Positions 61,765 to 63,158 of a stretch of DNA of 64,000 nt are shown in pieces (position 1 is the stretch's first letter; each line of letters begins with the position of its first letter). The stretch lies in NCBI RefSeq assembly GCF_003790525.1, contig NZ_CP033635.1; one strand, written 5' to 3'. Under the pieces are notes generated by a model. The model had not been told where the DNA came from and did not search any database. It was given only the letters and a program-made list of their open reading frames with translations. The translations under genes and the position numbers were made by a program. Source of the stretch: Escherichia coli. GTDB lineage: Bacteria; Pseudomonadota; Gammaproteobacteria; Enterobacterales; Enterobacteriaceae.

Positions 61765-61781
61765 GATGTGGCGTGAATGCC

Positions 61782-63158
61782 TTATTTCCGACGCAGCGTT
61801 TTAAATGCCACAAACAGGAATACAATCCACACCGGCAGCAGAATCGCTGACAAGCGCATATCATCCATCGTGCACATCAGCAGCAAAATCATGCCGAGGA
61901 AGGCGATGCAGAGATAGTTGCCGAACGGATAGAGCAGCGCCTTAAACTGTGTTTCACGCCCCTGACGTCGCATCGCTGCACGAAAACGCAGATGTGCCAG
62001 ACAGATCATAATCCAGTTCAACAGCAGCGTTGCTACCACCAGCGCCATCAGCAGACCAAACGCTTTTTGCGGCAGCAGATAGTTGATTAACACCACCAGC
62101 GAAGTGATCGCTCCGGAAAGCATCAGCGAGTTAATCGGCACACCGCGACGGCTGACGCGAGTCAAAAACTTCGGCGCATTACCCTGCACAGAAAGGCCAA
62201 ACAGCATGCGGCTGTTAGAGTAAACCCCGCTGTTATACACCGATAATGATGCTACCAGAATGACGAAGTTCAGCGCAGAAGCTACCACGTTGCTGTCGAG
62301 ATTATGGAAAATCATCACAAACGGGCTACTGTTAGATTTCACTTCCACCCACGGATAGAGTGCCAGTAAAACCACCAGTGAACCGATGTAAAACAGCAGG
62401 ATGCGATACACCACCTGATTCACTGCTTTCGGGATGCTTTTTTCCGGAGCGCGCGCTTCAGCGGCAGTAATCCCAATCAGCTCCAGCCCGCCGAAGGAGA
62501 ACATAATCACCGCCAGCGACAAAATCAGCCCATTCCAGCCGGTGGCAAAAAAACCACCGTAGCGCCAGAGGTTATCGATACTGGCTTTCTCGCCGCCGTG
62601 ACCAGAAAACAGCAGCCACAGGCCAAAGCCGATCATACCGATGATCGCCAGCACTTTAATCAGCGCAAACCAGAACTCGGTTTCGCCATATAAGCGCACG
62701 TTCACCAGGTTAACGGCGTTGATGATAATAAAGAAGGCGGCAGCCCAAATCCACGTTGGAACATCCGGGAACCAGTACTGCATATAGATGCCCGCAGCGG
62801 TCAGCTCTGCCATTCCCACCAGCACGAACATTACCCAGTAGTTCCAGCCAGAGAGGAAGCCCGCAAACGGTCCCCAGTATTTATAGGCAAAGTGGGCAAA
62901 TGAACCGGATACCGGCTCCTCAACCACCATTTCGCCGAGCTGGCGCATAATCAGGAAAGCGATGATCCCGGCGACGCCGTAGCCCAGCAATACAGCCGGA
63001 CCCGCCATCTGAATCGCCGGGCCAATGCCAAGAAACAGACCAGTACCAATTGCGCCACCCAGCGCAATCAGTTGAATATGACGGTTATGTAATCCGCGAT
63101 GAAGCGTCGGCTCTTGATTCGACGCAGTATCTTCCGATACGGTTGACGCGTTTTTCAC
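61782..63158 (-). CDS. pheP: Phenylalanine-specific permease (APC family)
   Basis: 458 aa from MKNASTVSEDTASNQ. Confidence 0.9.
   Translation of the reverse strand: MKNASTVSEDTASNQEPTLHRGLHNRHIQLIALGGAIGTGLFLGIGPAIQMAGPAVLLGYGVAGIIAFLIMRQLGEMVVEEPVSGSFAHFAYKYWGPFAGFLSGWNYWVMFVLVGMAELTAAGIYMQYWFPDVPTWIWAAAFFIIINAVNLVNVRLYGETEFWFALIKVLAIIGMIGFGLWLLFSGHGGEKASIDNLWRYGGFFATGWNGLILSLAVIMFSFGGLELIGITAAEARAPEKSIPKAVNQVVYRILLFYIGSLVVLLALYPWVEVKSNSSPFVMIFHNLDSNVVASALNFVILVASLSVYNSGVYSNSRMLFGLSVQGNAPKFLTRVSRRGVPINSLMLSGAITSLVVLINYLLPQKAFGLLMALVVATLLLNWIMICLAHLRFRAAMRRQGRETQFKALLYPFGNYLCIAFLGMILLLMCTMDDMRLSAILLPVWIVFLFVAFKTLRRK

What the first reader, a model, noticed from the sequence alone, without database searches (positions are those of the whole stretch)
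61765..61808. REP-like element overlapping the pheP stop codon
A REP-like palindromic sequence (gtcggatgtggcgtgaatgccttatttccgacgcagcg) follows the ybdG terminator hairpin and extends over the last codons and the stop of the convergent pheP gene, so it may shape the 3' ends of both transcripts.
Basis: seen in the sequence. Interest (0 to 1): 0.15.

Follow-up and report, generated by a model that had tools for sequence, protein, structure and literature searches.

The report
Decayed REP fused to pheP's end
This is a worn-down copy of the common E. coli REP repeat that a deletion joined to the end of the phenylalanine transporter gene pheP, so the repeat now supplies the gene's stop codon; it is an ordinary genomic relic and probably has little function.

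Summary
The window (E. coli SMS-3-5) has a palindrome with arms GTCGGA 61761-61766 and TCCGAC 61787-61792. Its core, 61763-61785, matches the Y-type REP consensus at 21 of 23 bases (0 expected by chance). It overlaps pheP's last three codons and its stop (61782-61784).

Comparison shows what it is. In 849 of 5,426 E. coli genomes (e.g. Nissle 1917) and in E. albertii, the same site carries an intact two-REP BIME, and PheP ends RRKVN*. In about 4,540 genomes, including K-12 and this window, a deletion joins the REP core to the Lys codon. PheP then ends RRK*, the stop codon is the TAA of the REP motif GATAAG, and pheP's Arg-Arg codons form the second arm. The CTAC tail is gone and the inner stem carries substitutions (-11 versus -21 kcal/mol).

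The neighbouring 11-bp hairpin (61724-61750) is conserved with compensatory changes in Citrobacter. By sequence it is pheP's terminator (U7) and only a weak one for ybdG.

The REP remnant therefore lies inside the pheP mRNA and does not set its 3' end. It could cap ybdG read-through transcripts. No 3'-end data were found. Interest is low: a known kind of element.

The parts
61761..61792 (.). Decayed Y-type REP remnant. Outer arms are GTCGGA (61761-66) and TCCGAC (61787-92). The inner stem is GGC (61770-72) / GCC (61779-81). The REP core match is 61763-61785.
   Evidence: Positional homology to intact REPs in B2-type E. coli, E. albertii and L006.
61782..61784 (-). pheP stop codon TAA. It is the TTA of the REP motif CCTTAT (GATAAG in pheP sense), so it is REP-derived.
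   Evidence: In the alignments the TAA lines up with the REP's ATAAGG, not with the TAA of the RRKVN* or RRKAR* alleles.
61785..61793 (-). Last three pheP codons, CGT CGG AAA (Arg-Arg-Lys). GT+CGG+A form the pheP-proximal arm of the palindrome. The CGG codon is AGG in every unfused Escherichia allele.
   Evidence: no exact match to a synthetic fused allele carrying AGG in 2,731 records.
61724..61750 (.). Conserved 11-bp hairpin. It is an intrinsic terminator for pheP (minus strand; U-tract = complement of A7 at 61717-61723) and a weak or bidirectional candidate for ybdG.
   Evidence: Covariation across Escherichia and Citrobacter: (4 pairs with changes on both sides).
61717..61723 (-). T7/U7 tract of the pheP terminator (A7 on the plus strand), 2 nt after the ybdG stop codon.
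61751..61760 (.). 10-nt spacer between the hairpin and the REP remnant. This window lacks the 13 nt (GTTTCGGATGGTT in K-12) found here in K-12-type alleles and, as diverged versions, in the other Escherichia alleles.
61782..63158 (-). pheP CDS (458 aa, ends ...FKTLRRK*).
60467..61714 (+). ybdG CDS (415 aa), convergent with pheP.

Best explanation
The element is the relic of a REP/BIME that entered the Escherichia lineage between the pheP stop codon and an older, conserved terminator hairpin. A later deletion removed the last two pheP codons and their stop, one REP, the linker, and the tail and proximal arm of the second REP. That joined pheP's Lys codon directly to the TAAGG of the REP core. 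As a result, PheP is two residues shorter (RRK* instead of RRKVN* or RRKAR*). Its stop codon is REP sequence. Its Arg-Arg codons replace the lost REP arm, and a synonymous AGG-to-CGG change makes the 6-bp outer stem perfect. The remnant has lost the CTAC tail and carries C-to-T and G-to-A changes that weaken the inner stem, so it looks like a dead, slowly decaying repeat. Mechanistic consequences (inferred): in pheP mRNA it forms a modest hairpin (-11 kcal/mol) over the last codons and the stop, which the terminating ribosome must melt. The pheP 3' end is set 10 nt further on by the hairpin plus U7 terminator. In ybdG-sense RNA the remnant is present only in transcripts that read through the U-poor side of that hairpin. 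There it folds better (-18 kcal/mol with flanks) and could serve as a stop point for 3' exonucleases after Rho-dependent termination inside pheP. I consider any present-day effect small. Shown: identity, homology, allele structure, counts. Inferred: the order of events and all RNA-level effects.
For: REP core match 21/23 with 0.00 expected by chance. A canonical REP elsewhere in the window serves as reference. Alignments show an intact two-REP BIME at the same site in strain CH4811 and E. albertii, with PheP ending RRKVN*. They show a single full REP with RRKAR* in L006, and fused alleles in the window, K-12 and Escherichia sp. MOD1-EC7003. Salmonella and Citrobacter have one or two residues after RRK, then the homologous hairpin and no REP. 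This makes the extra codons and the hairpin ancestral, and the REP an Escherichia insertion. Counts in 5,426 E. coli genomes: fused allele about 4,540; 1,323 of these keep the 13-nt spacer; BIME allele 849. AGG occurs in all 3 unfused Escherichia alleles and CGG in all fused ones. No exact match to a fused+AGG construct was found. Core substitutions differ among fused alleles while the outer arms are invariant in 10 sequences. Stability is -11.3 versus about -21 kcal/mol for a canonical REP. The terminator has U7 on the pheP strand only. There is a weak sub-threshold hit to Rfam naRNA4, which to my knowledge is a REP-derived RNA.
Against: The allele distribution does not follow a simple tree. 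E. albertii and some E. coli carry the BIME allele. A cryptic-clade Escherichia (L007, about 95-96% identical to the window across pheP and ybdG) carries the fused allele, and L006 (about 93-95%) has a third form. Recombination or long-lived polymorphism is therefore needed, and the order of events is inferred rather than shown. The deletion plus AGG-to-CGG needs two events. An alternative junction inside the REP arm followed by a +AA insertion cannot be formally excluded, although it would recreate Arg-Arg-Lys only by coincidence. Fused alleles with a pristine REP core (GN06758, GPEC505) may be recombinants rather than early forms: their YbdG accession equals that of a BIME-allele strain, and their PheP accession equals that of a fused-allele strain. 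The invariant outer arms and the stem-perfecting CGG could reflect selection for the hairpin, which would argue against 'mere relic'.
Confidence: 0.8

Rival explanations
1. The hairpin over the stop codon is a selected regulator of pheP. It slows ribosomes at the last codons and lowers PheP synthesis through stalling and trans-translation, as reported for REPs less than 16 nt from a stop codon. Alternatively or additionally, it stabilises pheP mRNA. On this view the AGG-to-CGG change was selected to restore the stem.
For: [quoted passage not shown] Here the REP overlaps the stop. CGG is confined to fused alleles and completes the stem. The outer arms are invariant in 10 sequences while core positions vary. 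The fused allele is in about 84% of E. coli genomes.
Against: The hairpin is weak (-11.3 kcal/mol against about -21 for a canonical REP). The inner stem is eroding in the commonest alleles. Half of the outer stem is constrained anyway because it is coding sequence. A strong terminator hairpin 10 nt downstream already protects the 3' end. No expression data exist. The stem-perfecting change can also arise by template switching in a quasi-palindrome without selection (established mutational mechanism, my knowledge).
Confidence: 0.12
2. The remnant works mainly on the ybdG side. ybdG transcription reads through the U-poor face of the hairpin and is terminated by Rho inside pheP. Exonucleases then trim it back to the REP remnant, which defines the steady-state ybdG 3' end.
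For: In this strain the stem is followed by ACATCGTTTT in the ybdG direction. K-12 has a Rho termination region on the ybdG-sense strand at 602863, about 550 nt past the ybdG stop (Rho score 3.3, p = 3e-6). Rho-dependent transcripts end at stable stem-loops, some of them REPs, after PNPase/RNase II trimming (Dar and Sorek 2018). The plus-strand fold of 61753-61800 is -18.2 kcal/mol, helped by G-U pairs that the other strand cannot form.
Against: No 3' end is listed in this intergenic region in the K-12 Term-seq tables I could search. The antisense signal could come from a promoter inside pheP. The flanking pairs that give -18 kcal/mol are not conserved: ATCG becomes ATCA in several alleles. 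The 11-bp hairpin just upstream would protect the transcript as well or better.
Confidence: 0.2
3. The fused form is ancestral in Escherichia, and the two-REP BIME with the longer PheP arose later by insertion.
For: The fused allele is the majority in E. coli and occurs in a second Escherichia species (L007).
Against: All non-Escherichia relatives have one or two codons after RRK. L006 ends RRKAR*, as Citrobacter does. The fused copy lacks the REP arm and the CTAC tail that full copies have. An insertion would have to recreate both, plus two codons and a stop.
Confidence: 0.05
4. The similarity to REP is a chance palindrome in a GC-rich gene end.
For: 6-nt inverted repeats are common here.
Against: The 23-nt core matches at 21/23 with 0.00 chance hits. 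The same bases align to intact REPs in sister alleles.
Confidence: 0.01

Closest known systems
E. coli REP / BIME elements (Y-type REP; Stern et al. 1984; Bachellier et al. 1999)
   Same: Core sequence GGATG(C/T)GGCGTGAA(C/T)GCCTTAT. Imperfect palindrome. Position at the 3' end of a gene between convergent genes. Orthologous to an intact two-REP BIME in other strains.
   Different: Overlaps 11 nt of coding sequence including the stop. Lacks the GGCCTAC tail and the original proximal arm. Carries two extra T's (the Lys codon) inside the stem. The inner stem is degraded. About half the folding energy of a canonical copy.
REPs within 15 nt of a stop codon that lower translation via ribosome stalling (Liang, Rudd and Deutscher 2015, cited in PMC12306157)
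   Same: A REP hairpin that the terminating ribosome cannot avoid. Here the stem starts 8 nt before the stop codon.
   Different: That effect was reported for REPs downstream of the stop. This copy is weak, and no stalling or tagging data exist for pheP.
REP and stem-loop mRNA 3' stabilisers, including ends of Rho-dependent transcripts (Newbury et al. 1987; Dar and Sorek 2018, PMC6061677)
   Same: A stem-loop at a gene's 3' end that could block 3'-5' exonucleases. It fits ybdG read-through transcripts.
   Different: A stronger conserved hairpin already lies next to it. No mapped 3' end is known.
Small repeats that fuse with gene ends and donate codons or stops (e.g. Rickettsia RPEs, Neisseria Correia elements, enterobacterial MITEs; from my knowledge)
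   Same: Repeat sequence recruited as the terminal part of an ORF, changing the protein's C-terminus.
   Different: Here the fusion arose by deletion next to a resident REP rather than by insertion into the gene. Only the stop codon is donated.
Bidirectional intrinsic terminators between convergent genes (Ju et al. 2019, from my knowledge)
   Same: One hairpin flanked by an A-tract and a T-containing stretch between convergent pheP and ybdG.
   Different: The U-tract is good on the pheP side only. In this strain a 13-bp deletion removed the TTT that follows the stem on the ybdG side in K-12.

Membership tests
E. coli REP (Y-type) | Match to the conserved REP core sequence | tested here: met
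   21/23 to CGGATGCGGCGTGAACGCCTTAT at 61763-61785, with 0.00 hits in 100 shuffles. Some fused alleles have a 23/23 core.
E. coli REP (Y-type) | Imperfect palindrome able to form a stem-loop | tested here: met
   6-bp outer and 3-bp inner stem, -11.3 / -12.5 kcal/mol, z = -4.4 / -3.5. Weaker than the canonical copy at 54928 (about -21).
E. coli REP (Y-type) | Conserved tail CTTATC(C/A)GGCCTAC (the GTAG/CTAC tetranucleotide next to the stem) | tested here: not met
   The pattern search with 2 mismatches finds only 54948 and 54997. Here the sequence reads CTTATTTCCGACGCAG.
E. coli REP (Y-type) | Extragenic location | tested here: not met
   61782-61792 lies in the pheP CDS including its stop. 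[quoted passage not shown]
E. coli REP (Y-type) | Descent from a REP copy (positional homology with intact REPs) | tested here: met
   Aligns base for base with the Y REP of the BIME in CH4811 and E. albertii, and with the single REP of L006.
E. coli REP (Y-type) | Many copies per genome | tested here: met
   The query containing the BIME hits a median of 9 places per E. coli genome even at megablast stringency. There are two further REPs in this window.
E. coli REP (Y-type) | Recognition by the REP-associated transposase (RAYT), gyrase or IHF | not testable with these tools
   Biochemical property. Loss of the CTAC tail suggests the copy is not processable (inference from published RAYT work, my knowledge).
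Intrinsic terminator (hairpin 61724-61750) | GC-rich stem-loop followed at once by a U-tract | tested here: met
   Minus strand (pheP): 11-bp stem then TTTTTTT. Plus strand (ybdG): the stem is followed by ACATCGTTTT, a poor tract.
Intrinsic terminator (hairpin 61724-61750) | Structure conserved with compensatory changes | tested here: met
   12 sequences from Escherichia and Citrobacter, with 4 of 12 pairs changed on both sides.
Intrinsic terminator (hairpin 61724-61750) | Transcript 3' ends map to it | not testable with these tools
   No 3' end is listed for this region in Adams et al. 2021 or in the TERMITe tables. The Dar and Sorek tables are not held.
Translation-attenuating REPs (15 nt or less from a stop) | REP hairpin begins no more than 15 nt after the stop codon | tested here: met
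   The stem begins 8 nt before the stop. In the BIME allele the first REP starts 19 nt after the stop.
Translation-attenuating REPs (15 nt or less from a stop) | Ribosome stalling, mRNA cleavage and tmRNA tagging of the upstream protein | not testable with these tools
   Needs reporter or ribosome-profiling experiments.

The most novel reading that the evidence does not exclude
The hairpin rebuilt from pheP's own Arg-Arg codons is maintained, either by selection or by palindrome-templated mutation. It makes pheP a natural case of a REP straddling a stop codon that tunes translation termination or trans-translation. E. coli would then carry two expression alleles of the phenylalanine transporter: fused in about 84% of genomes and BIME in about 16%.
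Probability: 0.1. Interest if true: 0.4.

Novelty: new member of a known kind. Interest (0 to 1): 0.15.

Why it matters
It is a small, clear example of how a repeat at a gene's end can be pulled into the gene. A deletion made REP sequence the stop codon of pheP, shortened the protein by two residues, and left coding bases acting as one arm of the palindrome. E. coli still carries both the intact and the fused states, so it offers ready-made strains to test whether a REP overlapping a stop codon affects translation or mRNA decay. It also warns annotators that the hairpin here serves pheP better than ybdG. None of this changes what is known about REPs.

Tried and rejected
1. The K-12 RefSeq record shows no REP feature here. 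It shows none at the known fepA-entD BIME either, so that absence says nothing. I could not check EcoCyc.
2. Liang et al. 2015 and Liang and Deutscher 2016 are not held. I rely on their summary in PMC12306157.
3. I looked for mapped 3' ends. There is no pheP or ybdG entry in the Adams et al. 3'-end tables, and no coordinate within the K-12 intergenic region (603336-603415). The TERMITe supplements have none. The supplements of Dar and Sorek and of PMC9023263 are not held.
4. Literature searches for pheP with ybdG, or pheP with REP, gave nothing useful.
5. Rfam gave only sub-threshold hits. The best relevant one is naRNA4 (23 bits against a gathering score of 59.5). The others (mir-3618, SNORD52, isrG) are noise.
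6. A 26-nt full REP pattern with 3 mismatches misses the element, because of the two extra T's and the lost arm.
7. I considered a deletion junction inside the REP arm (CTGCG|TCGGA) followed by a +AA insertion. I rejected it as less likely because it would recreate Arg-Arg-Lys by coincidence and pass through a long C-terminal extension.
8. I considered treating the pristine-core fused alleles (GN06758, GPEC505) as the early form. I did not, because their flanking protein accessions suggest recombination between a BIME allele and a fused allele.

Full report
**Source and layout.** The window is E. coli SMS-3-5, matched at 100% identity. On the plus strand the region reads as follows.
- ybdG runs 60467-61714, with stop TAA at 61712-14.
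- TT follows, then A7 at 61717-23.
- A perfect 11-bp hairpin sits at 61724-61750.
- A 10-nt spacer follows.
- The palindrome is GTCGGA TGTGGCGTGAATGCCTTATT TCCGAC, at 61761-61792.
- pheP is convergent on the minus strand, 61782-63158.

The pheP stop codon is the complement of TTA at 61782-84. The last three codons are AAA, CGG and CGT, at 61785-93.

- The 6-nt arms are exact. A 6-nt inverted repeat alone is not remarkable, because eight occur in 251 nt.
- The significant part is the core. 61763-61785 matches the canonical REP core CGGATGCGGCGTGAACGCCTTAT at 21 of 23 positions. The only other hit in 64 kb is a perfect REP at 54930, and shuffles gave no hits.
- The full 26-nt REP pattern fails. 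Two extra T's and a non-canonical arm follow CTTAT, and the conserved tail CTTATC(C/A)GGCCTAC is absent.
- As RNA the 32-mer folds at -11.3 kcal/mol in pheP sense and -12.5 in ybdG sense. The canonical REP at 54928 folds at about -21.

**What it is.** Related sequences settle this.
- An alignment of E. coli alleles, and of Escherichia species fetched with PheP as query, shows four states at this site.
  - (a) Strain CH4811 and E. albertii have an intact tail-to-tail pair of REPs (a BIME) after pheP, and PheP is 460 aa ending RRKVN*. The same 201-nt allele is 100% identical in Nissle 1917.
  - (b) A divergent 'E. coli' (L006, about 93-95% identical to the window across pheP and ybdG) has one full REP a few bases after a stop, and PheP ends RRKAR*.
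  - (c) K-12-type strains and Escherichia sp. MOD1-EC7003 have the fused form seen in the window, plus a 13-nt spacer next to the hairpin.
  - (d) The window type is the fused form without those 13 nt.
- Salmonella and Citrobacter have no REP. PheP there ends RRK plus one or two residues (for example RRKAR or RRKSR). The homologous hairpin follows about 7 nt after the stop in Citrobacter.
- The hairpin is conserved with compensatory changes: 4 of 12 pairs are changed on both sides among 12 sequences.

From this I draw three inferences. The hairpin and the extra codons are ancestral. REPs entered between the stop and the hairpin in Escherichia. The fused form is derived.

**The fusion.** In pheP sense the BIME allele reads ...CTG/TTG CGT AGG AAA GTG AAT TAA, then [REP, linker, GTAGG TCGGA] TAAGGCGTTCACGCCGCATCCGAC. 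The fused allele reads ...CTG CGT CGG AAA TAAGGCATTCACGCCACATCCGAC.
- The simplest path is one deletion from just after AAA to just before TAAGG. That keeps Arg-Arg-Lys by descent and makes the REP's TAA the stop codon.
- A second step changes AGG to CGG.
- AGG is present in all three unfused Escherichia alleles, and CGG in every fused allele examined.
- A synthetic fused allele with AGG has no exact match among 2,731 records that match that query.
- CGG turns GTAGGA into GTCGGA, the exact complement of the surviving arm TCCGAC.
- This could reflect selection for the stem, or template switching within a quasi-palindrome (a known mutational route, from my knowledge). I cannot tell which.
- An alternative junction inside the REP arm followed by a +AA insertion is possible. 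It would recreate Arg-Arg-Lys only by coincidence.

**Frequencies in 5,426 complete E. coli genomes.**
- About 4,540 genomes carry the fused allele (79-nt query).
- 1,323 of these keep the 13-nt spacer, leaving about 3,217 of the window's short type.
- 849 genomes carry the BIME allele.
- The window's exact 79-mer occurs in only 25 records. Most fused alleles have A where the window has G at 61770.

**Signs of decay.** The REP core varies among ten fused sequences:
- GGATGCGGCGTGAACGCC (canonical; GN06758, GPEC505)
- GGATACGGCGTGAATGCC (WW2)
- GGATGTGGCGTGAATGCC (window)
- GGATGTAGCGTGAATGCC (K-12, O157, MOD1-EC7003)
- GGACGTAGCGTGAATGCC (C325)

The changes are transitions, and most of them weaken the inner stem. 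The outer arms do not vary, but half of them is coding sequence.

The canonical-core alleles may be recombinants. Their YbdG accession equals that of a BIME-allele strain, and their PheP accession equals that of a fused-allele strain.

The allele distribution does not follow a simple tree. Recombination or old polymorphism is therefore involved, and the order of events is an inference.

**How it most likely works.**
- By sequence the hairpin 61724-61750 is pheP's intrinsic terminator. On the minus strand the stem is followed by TTTTTTT. On the plus strand it is followed by ACATCGTTTT.
- In K-12 the plus-strand side reads TTTCGGATGGTT. The window's 13-bp deletion removed that stretch.
- The REP remnant is therefore inside the pheP mRNA, upstream of its terminator. 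A ribosome must unwind it while reading the last codons.
- REPs less than 16 nt from a stop have been reported to lower translation (Liang et al. 2015, as summarised in PMC12306157). This copy meets the distance rule in the extreme, but it is weak.
- For ybdG the remnant matters only in read-through transcripts. In K-12 a Rho-dependent termination region lies on the ybdG-sense strand about 550 nt past the ybdG stop (602863, minus strand; Rho score 3.3).
- Rho-dependent transcripts are trimmed back to stem-loops, some of them REPs (PMC6061677).
- The plus-strand fold of 61753-61800 reaches -18.2 kcal/mol, but through flanking pairs that are not conserved.
- I found no mapped 3' end in this intergenic region.

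My reading is that this is a relic with small effects at most. For the pheP 3' end it is not supported by the anatomy.

**Comparison with known families.**
- The element descends from a Y-type REP. It shares the core, a palindrome, multi-copy family membership and positional homology.
- It fails two defining features, extragenic location and the CTAC tail. I file it as a degenerate remnant, not a functional REP.
- Rfam gives only a sub-threshold hit to naRNA4, which to my knowledge is a REP-derived RNA.
- Repeats that merge with gene ends are known in other bacteria (from my knowledge).
- I could not check whether EcoCyc lists a REP here. The K-12 RefSeq record held in this collection carries no REP features at all.

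**Verdict.** The element is a member of a known kind, and interest is low. The useful by-products are the REP-derived stop codon, the 458/460-aa PheP polymorphism, and a natural allele series for testing REP-over-stop effects.

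Noticed in passing
window 54928-55028: A canonical BIME between fepA and entD. 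It has a perfect Y-type REP (GCCGGATGCGGCGTGAACGCCTTATCCGGCCTAC), a 35-nt AT-rich linker, and an inverted Z-type REP (GTAGGCCTGATAAGCGTAGCGCATCAGGC). I used it as the in-window reference copy.
   Followed up: partly
window 61750/61751: The window lacks 13 nt (GTTTCGGATGGTT in K-12) directly after the hairpin. Diverged versions of these 13 nt are present in E. albertii, L006, L007 and B2-type strains, so this is a second deletion. It removes the TTT that follows the stem in the ybdG direction. About 3,217 of 5,426 genomes share it.
   Followed up: partly
L005 (PYVH01000101.1, 'Marinobacter sp. B9-2'): This contig is about 98.3-98.4% identical to the window's pheP and ybdG DNA (PheP protein 99%) and carries the fused allele. 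It is almost certainly E. coli contamination in a Marinobacter assembly.
   Followed up: no
L004 (E. coli HCP4S3_I4, NZ_CM149872.1): Homology to the window stops at 61723, exactly at the foot of the hairpin. An IS200C transposase and lambdoid ren/P genes follow instead of pheP. This is a rearrangement breakpoint at the terminator.
   Followed up: no
L022-L036, L043 (Enterobacter, Leclercia, C. sedlakii): Other repeat families sit just after pheP in these genera: CTCCCTGTGGGAGAGGGCCGGGGTGAGGG-type palindromes, often with REP-like GCCGGGCCTAC units. The pheP 3' flank seems to be a recurrent landing site for small repeats.
   Followed up: no
L014, L020 (Salmonella enterica arizonae / diarizonae): The hairpin between pheP and ybdG has its T7 run upstream of the stem in pheP sense (A7 downstream in ybdG sense). 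Neither direction looks like a canonical intrinsic terminator.
   Followed up: no
K-12 602863, minus strand (about window 62250, plus strand): Adams et al. 2021 list a Rho-dependent termination region antisense to pheP (Rho score 3.3, p = 3e-6). This implies ybdG-sense transcription running into pheP.
   Followed up: partly
L089, L091 (E. coli GN06758, GPEC505): These fused alleles have a perfect REP core and a B2/E. albertii-like spacer and hairpin loop. YbdG has the same accession as in a BIME-allele strain, and PheP the same as in a fused-allele strain. That suggests a recombination crossover inside or next to the REP.
   Followed up: partly
window 60449 and 63194: The mechanical ORF list starts ybdG at TTG 60449 and pheP at GTG 63194. 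The annotated proteins start at ATG 60467 (415 aa) and ATG 63158 (458 aa).
   Followed up: yes
E. coli genome search: Nine copies of the ybdG-pheP junction lie on plasmids rather than chromosomes.
   Followed up: no
L003 / L017 versus K-12, pheP 3' end and BIME: The B2-type allele is 94-97% identical to E. albertii across the last pheP codons and the BIME, but only about 87-92% in the flanking genes. There it is 98-99% identical to K-12. This suggests either conservation of the repeat or an old exchange of this short segment.
   Followed up: partly
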